Shown: piece by piece, positions 54,426 through 64,000 of the stretch | Layout: each line of letters starts with the position of its first letter | Position numbering within the stretch: the stretch's first letter is position 1 | Origin: a bacterium | GTDB lineage: Bacteria; Patescibacteriota; Gracilibacteria; JAHISY01 | DNA length: 64,000 nt | Assembly (NCBI GenBank): GCA_021779375.1 | Contig: JAJYAT010000006.1 | Span: forward strand, 33,515 to 97,514 | Direction of reading: 5' to 3' | Translations under genes and position numbers: made by a program | Notes under the pieces: generated by a model | Seen by the model: only the letters and a program-made list of their open reading frames with translations | Databases searched by the model: none | What the model was told of the DNA's origin: nothing

Positions 54426-54494
54426 TGGGTGGCAGGCTAAAGCACAGCTATTTTACATAAGCCACCTAATTTAGTCTCGGGCGAAATAACTTAG

Positions 54495-57400
54495 TCAATC
54501 TGAGTTTATCGTCTTACTAACCAGCTTCGCTAGCTCCGCCCGGTTAATCGGCTGACTAGGATAGAAGTGATCGGCTTTTTGGACGATCCCTTTCGCTAAC
54601 GCAGTTTCGACATAGACCGCAAGCGAGTCATTCGCGGAGACATCAGCGAAAGAGCTCTTCGTAATTTTTTCGAGTAGTGGAATTTTGCTGGCGGTAAGCA
54701 AGAGCTTCAAAGCTTCAGCACGCGTAAGTGTCTGCGCAGGATGAAAATATTTACCGCTCATGATGCCGTGACCAGCAAGCTCAAATAATTTGGCGGCAGT
54801 CACCGAGCCTACTACACCTAAGCCGTCTCGCAGGTAGGTTTTGAGATGATCATACTGGAAAGTGATTACTGCTTGCTGAGTGGTTTGATCGAAATAATTG
54901 GTCGAGAAATTTTTGAGATAGCCGAGTTCTTGCAGAATTTTCTTTAATTCCAAAACATCAGCGCCTTTGTGACCGATTACAAGCTTTCTCCCGAAATCTG
55001 AAACCTGGCGAATTTCCACAAAACCTGTAAGTAGACCGGACTGATCCAAAGATGCGACAAAAGGTGTGAACCACTCCCCGCTCGGTGTATCATTGAAAGG
55101 TTGTGATGTATTTGTGTCAGCGTCTAGATTGAAAGCTTTGGCAATGATCTTGGAAGATTCCGCACGCGTGACGAGATTAGCCGGTTTGAAATTACCATCT
55201 GGGAAACCGGAAATAATTTTGGCGAGAGTTAATTCTTTCACGAAATCAGCGAACCAACTATCCGCCTCGACGTCTGGAAACAGCGTGGTGGGAGATTTTC
55301 CGCGCGTTTTACTTAAAGTGATCAGATAGAGCTCTTCTCGTTTGCAACTAGCGTACTTTTGCGCGAGCAAATTGATCTTCACGATTCCCTCGGGGAGTTT
55401 TAATTTCGAAGTGTTGGCTTCGACCAAGTAGTCTCCATTCGCCTGTTTGGTGATTTTAATTTCGATTGGCTGGTCATTCACTTTGACCGAGATTCCGTTC
55501 ACCGGATAGTCGGCATCGACCACGAAAGAAATCTCCGGCAGAGTCGTGACGACGATGTCCGGTTTGGGATTAACGAAACTAAATTCTTGCGCACTGCAAA
55601 AAATTCCGCTGCCGCTGCCACCACCACCGGAGCTTGATGAGCTGCCGGATGAAGCGGCGCTACCGAATAAACCGAAAGTGGAAAAGTGGCTCGTTTCACA
55701 GGTGATTGAATTGGCAGCCGTGTTCACAATGCAGTTGCTCAAGGCAGTCCAAGCTCCGTCTGAATAGCGGTAAATCCAAAGTGAACTTTCATCCAAGCCG
55801 ACAATCTCAGAATCAGTGTAGTTGAGCGTGACGGTGATTGGGTTATCGAAAGTTGTGATCTTCGTAGTGGTGTCTGTGTAAGCATCGAGCGAATAGGTGT
55901 GGCTCCCAACTAAACTCTTGCTTGCAGGAGTGGAGGTCGTCGCGATTGTCGCAGCGGAGGCAAGTTGTTTGACCTGGAAGCTCGCCTCGCTCACCGAATA
56001 GTCGACTGGCATGGTGATCGCGAGATTCGCGCTGCCACTCGAGAGTGTGACACTGCCGCCAGTGGCAAGTGGAATTGTATCGTCATTTTCACCGCTCACG
56101 CTGGCACTGCCAGTACAGCCCGTCGTCGTGAAATTGCTCGTATCGCCGCTGGCAGGATTACTGCCTGCATCGACCGACTTCACGCGGAAATAGTATTTCG
56201 TACAAGCAAGCAAACTGCCGATGCTTTGGGAATGTGCGGTGACTCGCGGAGCGGTGTTGATTACACTTGTCGTTACACCAAAAGATGTACTCAAACCGTA
56301 TTCAATTTGCGTGGAAGCAGCTTCATCTGTCGTCCAGGTAATGGTCGCACCGGAGGAATTCACTGAGGCAGCAACAGCTGAAATTACGGGCGGAGTCGAG
56401 TCGGCAGTCGTGCTGGTCGTCCCACTTCCCGCTAATCCAAACGCCGTCTCATCATCATCGGCGTTCTTCGCTTTGGCGCAGAAAGAATATTGAGTATTGG
56501 CTGACAGACCTGTGACTGTCACGGTTGACCAAGCCGCATCAGCTTGCCAGACAGCGGAAGCGGAAATGGAACCATCAGCCTGGACGTAGCCGAGTCCGCC
56601 TGCTCCATCGCAGGTCGCACCTTGTTCGGCATAGATGGCCAGTGAGGTTTCGGTACCACCAGTGACGGGATTAACAGCGAGAGTTGTCGTAGTTGGATTA
56701 TTGACAGTCGGAGCAGCTGGAGTACTGGCAGCCGTGTAGGCTTGCAGGGTTAAGGATGCCGTTTTGGTGTCATCACCATTCCTGGCACAAACATAACGAG
56801 TGTACTGTGTGTTTGCCGAAAGAGTAGAGAGATCAAGATAACCGTTAGACGTTGTGCCATCGACGCAAGAGTTAGTCGTACCGTAAGCGTAGTCCTTTTG
56901 CGCTCCGCCGGAAGCCCAGGTGAGACGTAGCGCAGTAGTCGTTTGGTTCGTGTGACTGGCGGTCGTAGCAGCGTTGGCAAGCGTATATTTGTAAGCCGGA
57001 GTTGGAGTCACCCAAGCAGATTCATTGCCAACATTGTCTTTCACTTTGACTCGGATCGCCTGAGCCTCACTGGCATTGAGAGTCGAGAATGTAGATGCTC
57101 CCGAGACCCAGCCAGAATTGGCATCGGCTGTCACGAAACTCGTCGCGTTTTGATCAAGCTCAATGTAGTACTTATCAGTCGGCAAACCTGAGCCCGAGTC
57201 GGAAGCGCCGGAAGGAGTGACCTGGATTGAACCAAGCGCGATTGTCCCCCAATCTAGTGTCAATCCAGTCGGTGCTGTTTTGTCGTACTTCACGATGAAA
57301 GTTCGTTCAATCCCCCAAGTACCGGCTCCGGTCTTCGGACGGACGTGAAAGTAATTCGTACCTTCGGAGATCGTGATGTTGTCTACGTAGGCATTGGCTG

Positions 57401-60400
57401 TATTGAGCTCATCACCTGAAATTGTGGCAGTGGCAGTCGAATTTAATTCGTAATAGAAAGTATCGTCCGAGATAGAAGCTGGATCAGTCCAGCTGAAGGA
57501 GACTTGATCATCGCTCCCGGTGTCGGAATACTTGAACCAAGTGTTGGAAGTAAGAGAGGCGCGGTCAGTGTCTGTGCCAGAGCCAGCGTCGACAGCTGAG
57601 ATGTTTGGAGCGACTTCGAAGTTAGCTGTGACTGAAATATTAGCAGCGACATTGGTGTCGGTTCTTGGATTTTGAGTCGAACTGTCAGACCAATTAACAA
57701 AGCCGTAACCAGTGTCTGGTACAGCAGTCACTGCCGTGCCAGACGCCCCATAATTGACTGTCTGCGGAGAAGTACCAGTAATGGAACCATTGGCTCCGGC
57801 AGAGTAAGTGAGAGTGAATTCATTGGCTGCCCATTGCGCATAAACCGTAATATTATTTGTCACATTTGTACTACCAGTAAATGCTGTACCACTGCCATTA
57901 GCTTGAGTATTCCAGCTACCAAAACTGTAACCAGTTCTAGTAGGAGCAGTCGGTAAAGCATTAATCGTGGTATTGTAGTCAGCAGTTTTAGTCGTCGGAC
58001 TAGCTTCGGTATCTCCCCCATTCTTGTTGAAGGTGACGGTGAAATTATTAATTGTCCAAATTGCATAAACAGTGATGTTGTCAGTGACTGCGGTGGTAGC
58101 GTCAAAAAGAGAACCATTGCCATCCGCTTGGGTGTTCCAGCCAGCGAAAGAGTAGCCTGTTTTGGTTGGCGGGGTTGGCAGTGTTCCGACATTACCACCA
58201 TAATCGGCGGTTTTAGTAGTGGGATCAGCTTCAGTGCCCCCAGTGTTTTTGTTGAAAGTAACGGTGTGAGTATCAATCGCGAAACTAGCTGTCACGGAAA
58301 TATCTCCCGTCACATTTGTATCGGTTCGCGGATTGCTGGTGGAACCATCAGACCATTGGACGAAATGATAGTGAGCTTCAGGTACAGCAGTCACAGCAGT
58401 ACCGTCTGAACCGTAACTTACTGTCTGTGGAGAAGTGCCGGTGATAGAGCCGTTGGCACCGGCCGAATAAGTGAGGGTAAAATTTAAGGGAGACGTGCTA
58501 GGTATGCTTTCATCAGCTTCTATTGGTAATGCCAAGGCAGCATCATCTTTTAAAGTGTAGGAGGTGATGGGACTCTCTCCGTACAAACATCTGACGCCAG
58601 AAATTGTCCCAGAAGCATAATTTAGCCTTACGGTTGTAGCGTTTTGCCTAACGCCTGTCGCAGCTATCCAACTTGAACCATTATAAACCTCATAAGAGTC
58701 GATACTACTGGCTGGCGTGAAATCAGTTCCACCATCATGTTGGATATAAACATCGGTATGCGTTGAATCCACATTGTGCCACCAAATATTTTTTGGTCCT
58801 CGATGATAAGCATAATTTCCAGTTCCAATTTCATGCCACAATACAGATTGGGCGTACCTTAGAGCTTCTGTTTCTTGGCTTTGATAGGTTAAATGTACCC
58901 CATCAGCCAAGAGTGGTAAATCGACCGATTGACCAGCAAAAATTCTCTTTACCTCATGGTTATTATTACAGATATCTTCTTGGGCTGACCTAACAGCCGA
59001 AAATGAAGCATCATGACCCAGATAAGCACTGTTGGAACTTTTTGGCTGAGCAACTATATAGATTGGTAGGTTGCTATAATTTGTATCTGTTTCCAAATTT
59101 CCAAATAATGTTACCATCCCATCATAATAAACTTGATAAGTGATATTATTCATAGAATCAGTCCAACCCTGATACCACAAAGCACCATTAACTTTTTTTC
59201 TACTCATTGGCTCTGAGACTAGCAATCCTTCTTGTAAGTCCTCATACCAGTTATTTGAGGCTGAAGCTCCTAGCCAATATCCTAAGGCACCTTTGTATGC
59301 TTCTAGCAAAGCTGAGCCACCGATTCCGTAGTCCAATACTCCAATTGGGCAATGTAATTCTGATTGAAGCTTGTTGGCAAAAGTGATTGAGCCGTTACCA
59401 GTGTTTAACGCCCATCCAGTATATGGAAAAACATCTGCTGGATCTTGGGTAGATTGCTCCCCTATTTGACCAGTCGTAGCATGTCTGAATTTGCTTACTA
59501 AATCACTTGATGTTCTTTTTACATAAGCTGGATCATCATAGTCTAACCATTTATCTATGTAAGACTGACCAAAGTAAATGATAACAAAACCTACACCAAT
59601 TTTATGTGTTCCTGTGAAAATAACATTATGATTATCAGAATTTCTTACTTCAAACCCAAGCCATGCATTTGTTTTAGGTATATGAGATAAGGTACCACTC
59701 CAACTATTTCCAGAGATGGTTTCACCCGATAAGGTATTCCAATCATTTCCACTTACTTGCACGGTTGTATTAGTTGTTCGGTTAAAGACCCTAACCTCTA
59801 CATGACTAGGAGCTGTCCCACCATATCTTCCGCTTAAAACAATTGCTCCTTCTTTGTTCTCATCATAAGCAATGACCCTTCTGTCCTTTAGGTAATTAGT
59901 GTCTTCATTTAGATCTAATAGAATGTCTTGGGGAGTACCTGCCAAAGCAAAACTGGCAGGATCATTTTGATTGGAATATTGCGTAGCAATCCACTCATCA
60001 CTTCTAGCCACATTTGAAAGCTGAACTTCATCAACACCGCCCGTTATATTGCTGTTGGTAGCATTATTAAGCTCTCTCCCAATCGAAAAAACTCCTGAAT
60101 TATTGCTAATTGCAGAGTCAGCATAATTAGCTTGTTTCACGCCGTTGTAAAATAAATTACTATGATTGCTGGCGTCAGTTCTACCGATCAAATTAACAAA
60201 CGTGCTACCAACAATATTTCCAGCGTCCGCAACTATAGTGCTAGGATTTGCATCACCTTTACCGATAACATATCTAGCCAAATAGTCTCCATTATATGTG
60301 AACAGGCTATATCCGCTCCAATTCGTAGCCCAAGTTAATTTTCCTGCAAAACCTTGTAATGTAATTGTTGAAGTTCTTTTGGCCCAACAAGAGATGGTGA

Positions 60401-61076
60401 GTGCGCTCAAGTTGAAATCTGCGTGATTTGGAATATCATTATAAGCATCACTGTAATTAACGCCATATCCTATTTTTGAGCTTTGATTATAGCTAGGCGC
60501 ATTAGCACCCTGAGCTGAAACATTGTGCCCTCGTCCAGTTGAGTCAATCAATGCTGAATAAGCTGCCCCCTTCATATGCTGTACCAGCATAAAACCGTTA
60601 CTCCATACATTATTTCTTCCGTACGTTCCTGCCACATCAGGTTGGACTTCTCCAGTCTTACCATACCATACCCAAATAGAGGTTGTCGCAGAACTAGACA
60701 GATTTGTTTTGACCCAAATTTCTGCTGTTCCGTTAACAGGATTATTATCAATTGTAAAAGTAACAATTTCACAAGGCAATTGGTTTGCTCCATTGGCGTC
60801 AGAAGAAAATCTTATATCACCACCACCACTTAATGCTGGATGAGCACCGTCAGCATCAAACATTTCACTTGGTAAATTTGCCTGTGATAAAAGAATAGGA
60901 AAACCTGTAAGATTGGCGCTAGTCTGATCTAAAACTATTTCAGCTTTTCTCGTCCATCCCCCAGCACTCAAATCTGATGCCAAAACAATATTGGTATTGG
61001 TCAGTAAAAATAGTGCGGCTATGAAAACCCCGAATATTCCATAAAACGACGACTGATTTTTACTTTTTAGGTTCAT
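54495..61076 (-). CDS. Giant S-layer-homology-anchored surface protein (DUF2341/LamG - SGNH/SASA-like esterase - InlB-B/Listeria-Bacteroides repeats - FN3-like - SLH - PG-binding)
   Basis: About 2193 aa from the ATG at 61076 (MNLKSK..., signal peptide ending VLA). Esterase-like blocks FGQSYI / LWYQGWTD / LADGVHLT. Repeats TFNKNGGDTEA...GYSFGSWNT. SLH motifs FPDVEADSWFADFV...TRAES, and also near the C-terminus. PG_binding_1-like GADVLELKKILQELGY. Confidence 0.8.
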   Translation of the reverse strand: MNLKSKNQSSFYGIFGVFIAALFLLTNTNIVLASDLSAGGWTRKAEIVLDQTSANLTGFPILLSQANLPSEMFDADGAHPALSGGGDIRFSSDANGANQLPCEIVTFTIDNNPVNGTAEIWVKTNLSSSATTSIWVWYGKTGEVQPDVAGTYGRNNVWSNGFMLVQHMKGAAYSALIDSTGRGHNVSAQGANAPSYNQSSKIGYGVNYSDAYNDIPNHADFNLSALTISCWAKRTSTITLQGFAGKLTWATNWSGYSLFTYNGDYLARYVIGKGDANPSTIVADAGNIVGSTFVNLIGRTDASNHSNLFYNGVKQANYADSAISNNSGVFSIGRELNNATNSNITGGVDEVQLSNVARSDEWIATQYSNQNDPASFALAGTPQDILLDLNEDTNYLKDRRVIAYDENKEGAIVLSGRYGGTAPSHVEVRVFNRTTNTTVQVSGNDWNTLSGETISGNSWSGTLSHIPKTNAWLGFEVRNSDNHNVIFTGTHKIGVGFVIIYFGQSYIDKWLDYDDPAYVKRTSSDLVSKFRHATTGQIGEQSTQDPADVFPYTGWALNTGNGSITFANKLQSELHCPIGVLDYGIGGSALLEAYKGALGYWLGASASNNWYEDLQEGLLVSEPMSRKKVNGALWYQGWTDSMNNITYQVYYDGMVTLFGNLETDTNYSNLPIYIVAQPKSSNSAYLGHDASFSAVRSAQEDICNNNHEVKRIFAGQSVDLPLLADGVHLTYQSQETEALRYAQSVLWHEIGTGNYAYHRGPKNIWWHNVDSTHTDVYIQHDGGTDFTPASSIDSYEVYNGSSWIAATGVRQNATTVRLNYASGTISGVRCLYGESPITSYTLKDDAALALPIEADESIPSTSPLNFTLTYSAGANGSITGTSPQTVSYGSDGTAVTAVPEAHYHFVQWSDGSTSNPRTDTNVTGDISVTASFAIDTHTVTFNKNTGGTEADPTTKTADYGGNVGTLPTPPTKTGYSFAGWNTQADGNGSLFDATTAVTDNITVYAIWTINNFTVTFNKNGGDTEASPTTKTADYNTTINALPTAPTRTGYSFGSWNTQANGSGTAFTGSTNVTNNITVYAQWAANEFTLTYSAGANGSITGTSPQTVNYGASGTAVTAVPDTGYGFVNWSDSSTQNPRTDTNVAANISVTANFEVAPNISAVDAGSGTDTDRASLTSNTWFKYSDTGSDDQVSFSWTDPASISDDTFYYELNSTATATISGDELNTANAYVDNITISEGTNYFHVRPKTGAGTWGIERTFIVKYDKTAPTGLTLDWGTIALGSIQVTPSGASDSGSGLPTDKYYIELDQNATSFVTADANSGWVSGASTFSTLNASEAQAIRVKVKDNVGNESAWVTPTPAYKYTLANAATTASHTNQTTTALRLTWASGGAQKDYAYGTTNSCVDGTTSNGYLDLSTLSANTQYTRYVCARNGDDTKTASLTLQAYTAASTPAAPTVNNPTTTTLAVNPVTGGTETSLAIYAEQGATCDGAGGLGYVQADGSISASAVWQADAAWSTVTVTGLSANTQYSFCAKAKNADDDETAFGLAGSGTTSTTADSTPPVISAVAASVNSSGATITWTTDEAASTQIEYGLSTSFGVTTSVINTAPRVTAHSQSIGSLLACTKYYFRVKSVDAGSNPASGDTSNFTTTGCTGSASVSGENDDTIPLATGGSVTLSSGSANLAITMPVDYSVSEASFQVKQLASAATIATTSTPASKSLVGSHTYSLDAYTDTTTKITTFDNPITVTLNYTDSEIVGLDESSLWIYRYSDGAWTALSNCIVNTAANSITCETSHFSTFGLFGSAASSGSSSSSGGGGSGSGIFCSAQEFSFVNPKPDIVVTTLPEISFVVDADYPVNGISVKVNDQPIEIKITKQANGDYLVEANTSKLKLPEGIVKINLLAQKYASCKREELYLITLSKTRGKSPTTLFPDVEADSWFADFVKELTLAKIISGFPDGNFKPANLVTRAESSKIIAKAFNLDADTNTSQPFNDTPSGEWFTPFVASLDQSGLLTGFVEIRQVSDFGRKLVIGHKGADVLELKKILQELGYLKNFSTNYFDQTTQQAVITFQYDHLKTYLRDGLGVVGSVTAAKLFELAGHGIMSGKYFHPAQTLTRAEALKLLLTASKIPLLEKITKSSFADVSANDSLAVYVETALAKGIVQKADHFYPSQPINRAELAKLVSKTINSD
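58294..59637. repeat. Exact large direct repeat, copy 1 (partner 62657-64000)
   Basis: The offset is 4363 nt. The two copies give identical 347-aa translations and identical antisense ORFs (58763-58993 and 63126-63356). Several 60-nt lines checked by eye are also identical. The repeat may extend beyond the window end. Confidence 0.9.
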
Positions 61077-61230
61077 TTGTTGGACCAAAATTTCGCGTTC
61101 AAAAAAAGCAGAATGCCGCCTTGGATTTTATAATAAATCCAGCGTGATTGCTTATAAGCTTTTTGGTAAATCTATAAAAAATAGTAGCAAGCTTCTTAAA
61201 ATATCGTGATATAAGTTGATTCTATTGTTC

Positions 61231-64000
61231 CTACTCGCTTTGTGCCGCCTTATCGTATCTAATCTCAAAAACATACTCATCACCCCAAACACCTAATTCG
61301 GTCTGCGGTCGAACATGAAAGTAGGAAATACCTTCAGGAATAGTGACAGAATCAAGATAAGGAAGAGTGGTGGACGAATTCGGAGCGTCTGGCGCTCCCT
61401 CGATTACGAAAGTTGCTGGGGAATTTTCATTATCATATTCGGCGCTTAGCCAGGCTGCCGAACGAGCAATATTTGACCATCTAAATTCATCCATCGTTCC
61501 AGTACAGTAGCCCGTTGCATAATCGTAACAAAGGAAAGGATAAAACGTCCCTGTACCCAAATCACCCAGCCAGTTACCATTATTTGCTCCGTTGAAGATT
61601 ACCGCGCTTATTGCAGTCCCGTTTTTATAAAACTGCCAAGAATTACCATTACTGGCCAAGCCGTAATATTCCAAATCACCACTACGTGCTCCGTCAAGCA
61701 CAACATCGTTTCTGCCCTCGTCATACGATTGGAATGCTTCGTTTGTGGTTTTTGTTGTGAACCATCTCAGCAGTTCAGATTTATTTTTCGCATAGGAAAA
61801 ATATGAGTTAACTGCAGCGCTTGGATCAATCCACATGCTGATTGTACCGGCTTGATCAGCTTGATACAAAGCAGCATTCCAGCGAAGCGCGTCGTTACCA
61901 TCGAAATTCACGCCGTTACCAATCTTGACCGCTTGCGTCGCTGGGTCACTAATAATAGTCGAAGAATTGGCATTCGCTGAGTCTGTCCAATTATTATTTT
62001 GGAAATGTAAAACCATATTGTAGTTATCGTCCCAAACATTCTGACTACCATAAGTGTCAGTGACGGCTGGCTGAGTGGCACCCGCTTTGCCATACCAGAC
62101 GTAAATCGTAGTAGTAGACGTACTCGAGAGAGTCGGGACTTTCACCCAAACTTCGGCGGAGCCGAGACTCGGATCGTTATTCGTGACGAAAGAGACTACC
62201 TCGGCAGCAAGCTGGATTTGACCAGCCGCGTCGGAGGAAAAACGCAGATCACCGCCACCATTCAGTGCTGGATGACTACCATCAGCGTCGAACATTTCAG
62301 CCGGAAGAGTGTCTTTCGTCAGGAGTACTGGGAAATTCGTGAGATTTTCACTAACCTGAGCAATCACGAGCGGCGCACGACGAGTCCAGTCCGAACCGAA
62401 AATCGGAGTGGAAGCTGCAGCTGAATCGTCGTCAATCGCATTGGCGGCAGTCGAATTCAGTTTGTAGTAGAAAGTGTCATCACTCGCAGAAGCCGGATCA
62501 GCCCAACTGAAAGAAACTTGATCATCACCTCCGATAGCAGACGCTCCGAACCATTCACCGGAAGTAAGTGAAGTACGATCATCAGAGCCTGCGCCAGCAT
62601 CGACTACAGCGATATCCGGAACAGCCTCTGATACGGTCGAAGCGAAACTCGCACTTACGGAAATATCTCCCGTCACATTTGTATCGGTTCGCGGATTGCT
62701 GGTGGAACCATCAGACCATTGGACGAAATGATAGTGAGCTTCAGGTACAGCAGTCACAGCAGTACCGTCTGAACCGTAACTTACTGTCTGTGGAGAAGTG
62801 CCGGTGATAGAGCCGTTGGCACCGGCCGAATAAGTGAGGGTAAAATTTAAGGGAGACGTGCTAGGTATGCTTTCATCAGCTTCTATTGGTAATGCCAAGG
62901 CAGCATCATCTTTTAAAGTGTAGGAGGTGATGGGACTCTCTCCGTACAAACATCTGACGCCAGAAATTGTCCCAGAAGCATAATTTAGCCTTACGGTTGT
63001 AGCGTTTTGCCTAACGCCTGTCGCAGCTATCCAACTTGAACCATTATAAACCTCATAAGAGTCGATACTACTGGCTGGCGTGAAATCAGTTCCACCATCA
63101 TGTTGGATATAAACATCGGTATGCGTTGAATCCACATTGTGCCACCAAATATTTTTTGGTCCTCGATGATAAGCATAATTTCCAGTTCCAATTTCATGCC
63201 ACAATACAGATTGGGCGTACCTTAGAGCTTCTGTTTCTTGGCTTTGATAGGTTAAATGTACCCCATCAGCCAAGAGTGGTAAATCGACCGATTGACCAGC
63301 AAAAATTCTCTTTACCTCATGGTTATTATTACAGATATCTTCTTGGGCTGACCTAACAGCCGAAAATGAAGCATCATGACCCAGATAAGCACTGTTGGAA
63401 CTTTTTGGCTGAGCAACTATATAGATTGGTAGGTTGCTATAATTTGTATCTGTTTCCAAATTTCCAAATAATGTTACCATCCCATCATAATAAACTTGAT
63501 AAGTGATATTATTCATAGAATCAGTCCAACCCTGATACCACAAAGCACCATTAACTTTTTTTCTACTCATTGGCTCTGAGACTAGCAATCCTTCTTGTAA
63601 GTCCTCATACCAGTTATTTGAGGCTGAAGCTCCTAGCCAATATCCTAAGGCACCTTTGTATGCTTCTAGCAAAGCTGAGCCACCGATTCCGTAGTCCAAT
63701 ACTCCAATTGGGCAATGTAATTCTGATTGAAGCTTGTTGGCAAAAGTGATTGAGCCGTTACCAGTGTTTAACGCCCATCCAGTATATGGAAAAACATCTG
63801 CTGGATCTTGGGTAGATTGCTCCCCTATTTGACCAGTCGTAGCATGTCTGAATTTGCTTACTAAATCACTTGATGTTCTTTTTACATAAGCTGGATCATC
63901 ATAGTCTAACCATTTATCTATGTAAGACTGACCAAAGTAAATGATAACAAAACCTACACCAATTTTATGTGTTCCTGTGAAAATAACATTATGATTATCA
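61231..64000 (-). CDS. Paralogous giant surface protein, 5' end outside the window; lacks the SLH anchor
   Basis: The reading frame is open to the window edge. The TTG at 63699 in the ORF track is an internal Leu in the paralog. It has the same esterase-like and InlB-B modules, then a DUF2341/LamG module nested in an FN3-like domain. It ends ...EIRYDKAAQSE. Confidence 0.75.
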   Translation of the reverse strand, partial: DNHNVIFTGTHKIGVGFVIIYFGQSYIDKWLDYDDPAYVKRTSSDLVSKFRHATTGQIGEQSTQDPADVFPYTGWALNTGNGSITFANKLQSELHCPIGVLDYGIGGSALLEAYKGALGYWLGASASNNWYEDLQEGLLVSEPMSRKKVNGALWYQGWTDSMNNITYQVYYDGMVTLFGNLETDTNYSNLPIYIVAQPKSSNSAYLGHDASFSAVRSAQEDICNNNHEVKRIFAGQSVDLPLLADGVHLTYQSQETEALRYAQSVLWHEIGTGNYAYHRGPKNIWWHNVDSTHTDVYIQHDGGTDFTPASSIDSYEVYNGSSWIAATGVRQNATTVRLNYASGTISGVRCLYGESPITSYTLKDDAALALPIEADESIPSTSPLNFTLTYSAGANGSITGTSPQTVSYGSDGTAVTAVPEAHYHFVQWSDGSTSNPRTDTNVTGDISVSASFASTVSEAVPDIAVVDAGAGSDDRTSLTSGEWFGASAIGGDDQVSFSWADPASASDDTFYYKLNSTAANAIDDDSAAASTPIFGSDWTRRAPLVIAQVSENLTNFPVLLTKDTLPAEMFDADGSHPALNGGGDLRFSSDAAGQIQLAAEVVSFVTNNDPSLGSAEVWVKVPTLSSTSTTTIYVWYGKAGATQPAVTDTYGSQNVWDDNYNMVLHFQNNNWTDSANANSSTIISDPATQAVKIGNGVNFDGNDALRWNAALYQADQAGTISMWIDPSAAVNSYFSYAKNKSELLRWFTTKTTNEAFQSYDEGRNDVVLDGARSGDLEYYGLASNGNSWQFYKNGTAISAVIFNGANNGNWLGDLGTGTFYPFLCYDYATGYCTGTMDEFRWSNIARSAAWLSAEYDNENSPATFVIEGAPDAPNSSTTLPYLDSVTIPEGISYFHVRPQTELGVWGDEYVFEIRYDKAAQSE
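62657..64000. repeat. Exact large direct repeat, copy 2 (partner 58294-59637)
   Basis: See copy 1. The first mismatch is at 62656 versus 58293, a synonymous Val codon change. Confidence 0.9.

What the first reader, a model, noticed from the sequence alone, without database searches (positions are those of the whole stretch)
58294..64000. Exact >=1.34-kb direct repeat shared by two tandem giant surface-protein genes
Positions 58294-59637 and 62657-64000 (offset 4363 nt) appear identical. The identity ends only at the window edge, so the repeat may be longer. Sequence outside the lower boundary diverges at once (ISVTASFAIDTH... versus ISVSASFASTVS...). The repeat covers the esterase-like domain plus one InlB-B-type repeat, and it is visibly more AT-rich than the 3' two-thirds of gene 1. 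Perfect identity between paralogs that are otherwise diverged points to very recent duplication or ongoing gene conversion. Homologous recombination between the copies would delete 4.36 kb. That deletion would fuse the upstream gene's N-terminus to the SLH-anchored C-terminus of gene 1. This would be a simple switch for surface-protein variation. A metagenome-assembly artefact must also be considered.
Basis: seen in the sequence. Interest (0 to 1): 0.6.

Follow-up and report, generated by a model that had tools for sequence, protein, structure and literature searches.

The report
Identical esterase module in neighbouring genes
Two neighbouring secreted-protein genes of a tiny uncultivated (CPR-type) bacterium share a letter-perfect 1.64-kb stretch that encodes a whole sugar-deacetylating enzyme module; this is most likely ordinary recent copying between the genes, and the perfect identity may partly come from the short-read assembler.

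Summary
The repeat is 1,640 bp with no mismatch (window 58294-59933 and 62657-64296). It ends 296 bp past the window edge and has sharp ends on both sides.

It encodes one complete CE20/SIAE-like carbohydrate O-acetylesterase module with an intact Ser-Asp-His triad, plus nearly all of one InlB-B repeat. It is in frame in both genes.

The two genes are not collinear paralogs. They are differently ordered domain mosaics inside a 10.7-kb AT-rich island, which a congener with 88-91% identical flanks lacks. Both module contexts (DNRLRE-esterase and LamG-esterase) occur in other CPR lineages. I therefore favour recent non-reciprocal overwriting (gene conversion) of one module by the other; a fresh module insertion is the main rival.

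Contig ends overlap by 127 nt, so this is a k=127 de Bruijn assembly. The two copies are probably one graph edge walked twice, so "perfect" identity is not independent evidence.

A deletion between the copies would give an in-frame 2,037-aa fusion, but it would be one-way, and no variants were found.

Similar conversion tracts were noted earlier in this scan on other DNA. This is an ordinary process in a new gene family.

The parts
58294..59933 (-). Repeat copy 1 (R), inside gene 1, residues 386-931 (numbered from the TTG at 61088)
   Evidence: Exact 1,640-bp match to copy 2. In frame: 61088-59933 = 1155 = 3 x 385.
62657..64000 (-). Repeat copy 2 (R), inside gene 2, residues 226-771. It continues to 64296 beyond the window (contig C6 96171-97810).
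   Evidence: In frame: 64971-64296 = 675 = 3 x 225.
54495..61076 (-). Gene 1, 2,193 aa from the ATG at 61076. Order of parts: signal peptide, DUF2341/LamG, esterase module, Flg_new_2, two Flg_new, Flg_new_2, FN3-like domains, SLH repeats, PG_binding_1.
   Evidence: The same product is on record as P0041.
61231..64000 (-). Gene 2, 1,246 aa, with its start at 64971 beyond the window. Order of parts: signal peptide, DNRLRE/CBM96 head, esterase module, Flg_new_2, FN3-like domain split by a nested DUF2341/LamG. It has no SLH anchor.
59934..62656 (-). The 2,723-bp unique segment between the copies: the gene 1 head (DUF2341/LamG), a 142-bp intergenic spacer, and the gene 2 tail. Together with one R copy this is what a deletion would remove.
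58494..59933 (-). Esterase module proper, 480 aa: beta-sandwich, SGNH/SASA catalytic domain, beta-sandwich. Catalytic Ser509 is at 59562-59564, Asp729 at 58902-58904 and His732 at 58893-58895.
   Evidence: AlphaFold2 model with mean pLDDT 89.8. Foldseek matches to 7kmm (CE20 acetylesterase) and 8f9o (SIAE), TM 0.6-0.7. GQS, D and H are invariant or nearly invariant in alignment A1.
58294..58493 (-). Flg_new_2 (InlB B-type) repeat at the 3' end of R. Identity stops 5 codons before the end of the repeat, followed by a 15-nt margin that matches at 11 of 15.
54464..64000 (.). 10.7-kb accessory island (window 54464 to about 65160), made up of gene 1, gene 2 and the gene 2 upstream region. The congener G008 has about 37 bp here, between the A2M gene and the acyltransferase gene.
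54508..57278 (-). Gene 1 C-terminal 2.77 kb (FN3-like, SLH, PG-binding). It is 90% identical in DNA and 94% in protein to a 5'-truncated paralog on contig C9.

Best explanation
The repeat is a real two-copy segment produced by recent non-reciprocal copying (gene conversion or segment replacement) between two adjacent mosaic secreted-protein genes in a laterally acquired, AT-rich 10.7-kb island. Each gene probably already carried a homologous esterase module followed by an InlB-B repeat. One version overwrote the other across the whole shared stretch, so identity ends where homology ends.

Shown here:
- the exact repeat and its limits;
- its coding content, a complete and probably active CE20/SIAE-like O-acetylesterase module plus one Flg_new_2 repeat;
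- the same reading frame in both genes;
- the absence of the island from a congener;
- the presence of both architectures in other CPR lineages.

Inferred:
- conversion rather than fresh insertion;
- the donor, which stays unresolved;
- recency.

The zero-mismatch figure may overstate the true identity, because the assembler probably spelled both copies from one graph edge.
For: - Exact 1,640-bp identity with sharp ends, and only two copies in the genome.
- Both junction types predate this genome. P0007 aligns collinearly with gene 2 residues 34-698 across the DNRLRE|esterase junction at 47%. P0038 and P0039 align collinearly with gene 1 residues 5-1134 and 45-871 across the LamG|esterase junction at about 47%.
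- Gene 2's Flg_new_2 plus FN3-like tail is collinear with gene 1 residues 1091-1226 at 69%. It is also collinear with repeated units of the 7,077-aa ORF on C5.
- The 3' end of the tract lies inside a pre-existing repeat type and has an 11/15-nt partly matching margin.
- RecA is present.
- Other module pairs in the same family are far less alike: 90% in DNA for the C-terminal module versus C9, and 36% in protein for the DUF2341/LamG parts.
- The island is absent from congener G008.
- The heads have GC3 of 0.29-0.35, in the lowest few percent of the genome (median 0.576). This resembles the low-GC CPR contigs that carry the closest homologs.
Against: - There is no diverged-but-homologous margin at the 5' end. 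Identity starts exactly at a domain linker next to unrelated domains, which fits a cut-and-paste duplication as well.
- If the two ancestral modules were about 50-60% identical, as cross-lineage homologs are, homologous recombination could not have started between them.
- No related strain carries the locus, so no phylogenetic test of conversion was possible.
- The module tree does not resolve which context R belongs to.
- Exact identity is expected by construction in a k=127 de Bruijn assembly (PMC5411777 on consensus building and bulge collapsing).
Confidence: 0.55

Rival explanations
1. Fresh segmental duplication (domain shuffling). A 1.64-kb module cassette was copied by illegitimate or microhomology-mediated recombination into a neighbouring gene that had no esterase module there. 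No earlier paralogy is involved, and the copies are identical only because the event is very recent.
For: - The 5' junction is abrupt, at an inter-domain linker, with no flanking homology.
- The family is visibly modular, with the same modules found in different orders.
- P0038 has the esterase followed directly by a Flg_new repeat, not a Flg_new_2. The Flg_new_2 inside R could therefore be foreign to the gene 1 type.
Against: - Both junction architectures exist independently in other lineages.
- The 3' end falls 5 codons before the end of a repeat and is followed by a partly matching margin. That looks like a homology-guided end.
Confidence: 0.2
2. Assembly artefact or population mixture. The contig path A-R-B..C-R-D is the assembler's walk through a loop in the graph. 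The real state could be a mixture of a single-copy A-R-D form with multi-copy forms, a different copy number, or copies that differ by scattered SNPs collapsed into one edge.
For: - Contig ends overlap by exactly 127 nt, the signature of a k=127 de Bruijn assembler.
- metaSPAdes builds a consensus backbone and collapses bulges aggressively (PMC5411777).
- A second exact within-contig repeat of 647 bp exists on C14.
- Only one assembly holds these genes.
Against: - Four different junctions exist, and the 2.7-kb B-spacer-C segment runs from R back into R. Any single linear genome that contains it therefore needs at least two copies of R.
- All junctions are in frame, giving two intact ORFs.
- The 4,363-bp circle that is the alternative has one gene and no replication function.
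- Collapsing only hides sparse differences, so the copies must still be nearly identical.
Confidence: 0.15
3. A selected variation device. The repeat is kept as a recombination substrate. Subpopulations delete the 4.36 kb and display the DNRLRE-esterase head on the SLH-anchored stalk, which changes surface specificity.
For: - The deletion product is an intact in-frame 2,037-aa protein with a signal peptide and an SLH anchor.
- RecA is present.
- The repeat is long and the copies lie only 2.7 kb apart.
Against: - The deletion is one-way.
- The genes read around the island are A2M, an acyltransferase, an FN3 protein, a TIM-barrel protein and an aminotransferase; none is a recombinase.
- No fusion form was found in any collection.
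- Any long direct repeat has this property without having been selected for it.
Confidence: 0.05

Closest known systems
Segmental gene conversion between outer-surface paralogs: Helicobacter pylori babA/babB and homA/homB (my own knowledge), and Brucella omp2a/omp2b (PMC7050475, found, title and abstract only)
   Same: Two surface-protein genes in one genome share a tract of near-perfect identity while the rest differs. The mechanism is RecA-type non-reciprocal copying, and chimeric genes can result.
   Different: - Here the genes are adjacent, in direct orientation, and are not collinear paralogs.
- The tract is a whole enzyme module bounded by unrelated domains.
- No strain series exists to show recurrence.
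- The host is an uncultivated CPR bacterium.
Deletion fusions between tandem emm-like genes (emm/enn/mrp) of Streptococcus pyogenes (my own knowledge)
   Same: Tandem, wall-anchored surface-protein genes share segments, and recombination between direct repeats gives in-frame chimeric fusion genes.
   Different: Fusions have been observed among streptococcal strains. Here the fusion is only predicted in silico.
CE20 carbohydrate acetylesterases and sialate O-acetylesterase SIAE (PDB 7kmm XAC1771, 9ega PpCE20_II, 8f9o dog SIAE)
   Same: The repeat's 480-aa module has the same three-part fold: an SGNH/SASA catalytic domain with flanking beta-sandwiches. TM is 0.6-0.7 and Foldseek E is 1e-18 to 1e-23. 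PF03629 scores above its cut-off, and GQS and DxxH are conserved.
   Different: - Sequence identity is only 11-18%.
- Block III reads QGWTD rather than QGESD.
- The module is embedded in multi-domain surface proteins of 1,246 and 2,193 aa.
- The substrate is unknown.
CPR proteins P0038 (Parcubacteria group MAG, 1,555 aa) and P0039 (Candidatus Moranbacteria GW2011, 1,098 aa)
   Same: They have the same DUF2341/LamG, esterase, Flg architecture as the gene 1 head and are collinear with it at about 47%. They come from low-GC DNA, as R does.
   Different: They are single genes lying next to gyrB, with no tandem partner and no internal duplication. In this genome gyrB is on another contig.

Membership tests
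Interlocus gene conversion / concerted evolution of paralogs | A tract of much higher identity than the rest of the two genes, within one genome | tested here: met
   The tract is 100% identical over 1,640 bp. Other shared modules are 36-69% identical in protein, and the directly adjacent flanks have no homology.
Interlocus gene conversion / concerted evolution of paralogs | Both loci carried homologous sequence before the tract became identical (older paralogy) | tested here: inconclusive
   Both junction architectures occur in other lineages. However, diverged homologous margins around the tract are lacking, apart from 15 nt at the 3' end.
Interlocus gene conversion / concerted evolution of paralogs | Phylogenetic discordance or recurrence across related strains | not testable with these tools
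   No relative carries the locus: 40 relatives, JGI contigs, GTDB representatives and exact look-ups were all negative. The congener G008 lacks the whole island.
Interlocus gene conversion / concerted evolution of paralogs | Homologous recombination machinery present | tested here: met
   RecA (PF00154) scores 437.7 bits on contig C14.
De Bruijn-graph assembly loop / collapsed repeat artefact | The assembly comes from a short-read de Bruijn assembler whose contigs can pass twice through one edge | tested here: met
   Contig ends overlap by 127 nt throughout, and a second exact within-contig repeat lies on C14. The assembler's behaviour is taken from PMC5411777 and my own knowledge.
De Bruijn-graph assembly loop / collapsed repeat artefact | Read depth and spanning reads contradict the two-copy path | not testable with these tools
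SASA / CE20-type carbohydrate O-acetylesterase (module identity) | Family profile match above the curated cut-off | tested here: met
   PF03629 scores 62.4 and 64.1 bits against a cut-off of 24.8. PDB sequence hits are 2apj, 9ega and 1zmb.
SASA / CE20-type carbohydrate O-acetylesterase (module identity) | Catalytic Ser (GQS block) and the Asp/His of the DxxH block are conserved | tested here: met
   G122, Q123, S124 and H347 are invariant and D344 is nearly invariant across 14 homologs. In gene 1 these are S509, D729 and H732.
SASA / CE20-type carbohydrate O-acetylesterase (module identity) | Fold of the solved family members | tested here: met
   The model has pLDDT 89.8 and pTM 0.90. The best Foldseek matches are 7kmm, 8f9o and 9ega, at probability 1.00 and TM 0.57-0.70.
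SASA / CE20-type carbohydrate O-acetylesterase (module identity) | Deacetylase activity on a defined glycan | not testable with these tools
   This needs expression and an enzyme assay.
Programmed surface-variation system (cassette, shufflon or phase-variation type) | Reversible or repeatable switching, silent cassettes or a dedicated recombinase | tested here: not met
   The only possible event is a one-way deletion. Neighbouring genes are A2M, an acyltransferase, an FN3 protein, a TIM-barrel protein and an aminotransferase. There is no cassette array.

The most novel reading that the evidence does not exclude
The 1.64-kb direct repeat is maintained by selection as a recombination substrate. 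Populations of this CPR bacterium then always contain cells that have fused the DNRLRE-esterase head onto the SLH-anchored stalk and shed the LamG heads. This would be a simple way for an obligate episymbiont to diversify host-surface recognition.
Probability: 0.07. Interest if true: 0.55.

Novelty: new member of a known kind. Interest (0 to 1): 0.3.

Why it matters
If real, this is a clean snapshot of how the large surface proteins of CPR/Patescibacteria are built. These proteins are presumed to mediate attachment to host cells. Whole enzyme and lectin modules are copied between neighbouring genes inside a laterally acquired island, leaving long direct repeats that can later collapse into new fusions. 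That is useful context for surface-protein evolution in episymbionts, but the process itself is well known. The practical lesson is methodological: in k=127 short-read MAGs, a 'perfect' long repeat inside a contig is not independent evidence of perfect identity.

Tried and rejected
- **Independent assemblies.**
  - Exact look-ups of both proteins found no other contig.
  - The cluster look-up shows each protein on one contig only.
  - The JGI metagenome scan returned only InlB-B repeat matches.
  - The GTDB genome scan returned nothing.
- **Relatives.** DNA and protein searches of 40 relatives and of the genus found only Flg repeats and SLH domains, with no esterase module.
- **Donor direction.**
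  - The maximum-likelihood tree of 14 modules left R, P0038 and the clade holding P0039, P0007, P0004 and P0005 unresolved.
  - Composition is ambiguous: C and R both have GC3 of 0.29, and A has 0.35.
  - The linker alignments fit both contexts.
- **Simple tandem duplication.** Rejected, because only 1,640 of the 4,363 bp are repeated.
- **A 4.36-kb episome sharing R.** Rejected as implausible: it would carry one gene plus a 142-bp spacer and no replication function.
- **C9 as an allelic strain variant.** Rejected, because its downstream genes are unrelated to those on C6.
- **Signals in the gene 2/gene 1 spacer.** The scan found no promoter or terminator.

Full report
**1. The observation**

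The window is G000:C6:33515-97514 of a 14-contig, 1.07-Mb genome.

In the full contig the exact run continues to window-equivalent 59933 / 64296. The repeat (R) is therefore 1,640 bp at an offset of 4,363 bp. Identity drops to the random level immediately on both sides. BLAST against the whole genome finds only these two full copies. The first ~190 bases, an InlB-B repeat, have ~70% matches elsewhere.

**2. Gene structure**

All genes here are on the minus strand.
- Gene 2 runs from 64971 to 61231 (1,246 aa).
- Gene 1 runs from 61076 or 61088 to 54495 (2,193 or 2,197 aa).
- An alpha-2-macroglobulin gene follows at 54425-48432.

R covers residues 226-771 of gene 2 and 386-931 of gene 1, in the same frame in both.

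Pfam and NCBIfam give these architectures:
- Gene 1: signal peptide, DUF2341/LamG, SASA esterase, Flg_new_2, Flg_new x2, Flg_new_2, FN3-like, SLH, PG_binding_1.
- Gene 2: signal peptide, DNRLRE/CBM96, SASA esterase, Flg_new_2, then an FN3-like domain interrupted by DUF2341/LamG. It has no SLH anchor.

So the genes are not collinear paralogs. Outside R they share a 69% identical Flg_new_2/FN3-like stretch and a 36% identical DUF2341/LamG module, and these sit in different positions. Directly outside R the sequences are unrelated: LamG end versus DNRLRE end at the 5' junction, and Flg_new versus FN3-like after an 11/15-nt margin at the 3' junction.

**3. What R encodes**

The first 480 residues form one compact module. 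The AlphaFold2 model on 14 homologs has mean pLDDT 89.8 and pTM 0.90. It shows a beta-sandwich, an alpha/beta catalytic domain and a second beta-sandwich.

Foldseek against the PDB gives three best groups of hits, at TM 0.57-0.70:
- the CE20 carbohydrate acetylesterase XAC1771 (7kmm);
- mammalian sialic-acid esterases (8f9o and relatives);
- PpCE20_II (9ega).

Sequence search of the PDB agrees, with hits to 2apj, 9ega and 1zmb. GQS, with the nucleophile Ser, and the His of DxxH are invariant across homologs, and the Asp is nearly invariant. In gene 1 these are Ser509, Asp729 and His732. The module is thus probably an active O-acetylesterase.

The last 66 residues of R are almost all of one Flg_new_2 repeat.

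In a library of 1.84 billion cluster representatives, only a handful of proteins are more than 40% identical to the module.

**4. History of the locus**

The congener G008 has an A2M gene 92% identical in protein. Its flanks are 88-91% identical in DNA. There, A2M is followed after about 37 bp by the acyltransferase gene that in this genome lies beyond gene 2. So gene 1 plus gene 2 form a 10.7-kb indel, window ~54464-65160.

The heads of both genes and the esterase part of R have GC3 of 0.29-0.35. The genome median for long ORFs is 0.576 and the 1st percentile is 0.288.

The closest homologs are P0038 (Parcubacteria group) and P0039 (Moranbacteria).
- They are collinear with the gene 1 head across both R junctions, at about 47%.
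- They sit in 35-36% GC contigs.
- They are single genes next to gyrB. gyrB here is on another contig.

P0007 has the DNRLRE-esterase architecture of gene 2 and aligns across that junction at 47%. Both contexts of the module are therefore older than this genome.

A third family member on contig C9 shares gene 1's C-terminal 2.77 kb at 90% DNA identity, with different downstream genes.

The picture is a laterally acquired, fast-evolving family of modular surface proteins.

**5. Mechanism**

Both junction types exist elsewhere, and the 3' end of the tract lies inside a repeat type that both genes would have had. I therefore favour non-reciprocal overwriting of one esterase-plus-Flg_new_2 segment by the other (gene conversion or segment replacement), confidence about 0.55.

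The main rival is a fresh cut-and-paste of the cassette into a gene that lacked it (0.2). The abrupt 5' junction favours it. So does the fact that P0038 has a Flg_new, not a Flg_new_2, directly after its esterase.

The donor could not be determined. The module tree is unresolved, and composition and linker alignments fit both directions.

**6. Assembly caveat**

Contig ends overlap each other by 127 nt, often among several contigs. This is the signature of a de Bruijn assembler run at k=127, most likely of the SPAdes family (my inference).

A contig can contain a 1.64-kb exact repeat only by passing twice along the same graph edge, so zero mismatches follow from the method. metaSPAdes explicitly builds a consensus backbone and collapses bulges aggressively (PMC5411777). 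Sparse differences between the copies would therefore have been erased.

The graph topology still argues for two copies. There are four distinct in-frame junctions, and the unique 2.7-kb segment leaves R and re-enters R. The alternative, a 4,363-bp circle with one gene, is implausible.

Copy number, true identity and the presence of deletion variants remain untested.

**7. The proposed 'switch'**

Joining the flanks in silico gives an intact 2,037-aa ORF with gene 2's signal peptide and DNRLRE head, R, and gene 1's repeats and SLH anchor. The reciprocal circle would carry a 1,402-aa ORF. RecA is present.

The deletion is thus feasible and would yield a plausible protein. But it is irreversible, no recombinase or cassette array is nearby, and no fusion form was found. 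It is a by-product that any long direct repeat has, not a demonstrated device.

**8. Verdict**

This is a new instance of a well-known process, module copying or gene conversion between neighbouring surface-protein genes. The same class of finding has been recorded several times in this scan on other DNA. Interest is modest.

Noticed in passing
window 54464 to about 65160 (extends past the window); L058:3015-3055 in congener G008: Gene 1 plus gene 2 form a 10.7-kb indel. In G008 (flanks 88-91% identical) the A2M gene is followed after about 37 bp by the acyltransferase gene. No target-site duplication is evident at the island borders.
   Followed up: yes
contig C9 (L022) 3-2906, versus window 54508-57278: A third family member shares gene 1's C-terminal FN3/SLH/PG-binding part at 90% DNA identity (94% in protein). 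The identity starts abruptly at 'TAPTGL'. The gene is cut at a dead-end contig start, so its 5' part (which might hold another R copy) is missing from the bin.
   Followed up: partly
contig C14 69271-69917 and 71826-72472 (L055 2272-2918 and 4827-5473): A second exact within-contig direct repeat of 647 bp. It duplicates a whole 187-aa ORF with no Pfam match, placed ahead of two diverged tandem genes (498 and 614 aa, one with an fn3 domain).
   Followed up: partly
all contig ends of G000: Contig ends overlap by 127 nt. One end sequence is shared by C1, C2, C3, C6, C7 and C10, and another by C2, C3, C4, C12, C13 and C14. This points to unresolved multi-copy elements and a k=127 de Bruijn assembly. 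The C5 end and C11 start carry an 8-bp-period tandem repeat.
   Followed up: partly
L001:6083-6862 (-), window-equivalent 65145-65924: An HGSNAT_cat/Acyl_transf_3 membrane acyltransferase (5e-61) lies immediately upstream of the island that carries two O-acetylesterase modules. It is conserved in G008, so the adjacency may be coincidental.
   Followed up: no
contig C5, about 48.4-58.4 kb (7,077-aa ORF); G008:C3, about 118.6-125.1 kb (6,236-aa ORF): Giant ORFs are built from repeated units of Flg_new_2 plus an FN3-like domain split by DUF2341/LamG, the same unit as the gene 2 tail (46% identity). The nested arrangement is thus a conserved unit and not a recent accident.
   Followed up: partly
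L052:6886-13658 and L053:7853-13294: In a Parcubacteria MAG and a Moranbacteria MAG, the LamG-esterase-Flg homolog lies directly downstream of gyrB. This synteny is conserved across lineages but not kept in this genome.
   Followed up: partly
window 61089-61230: The 142-bp AT-rich spacer between gene 2 and gene 1 holds a short hairpin (GGATTT-ATTATA-AAATCC) and a T-run. The consensus scan found no promoter or terminator.
   Followed up: partly
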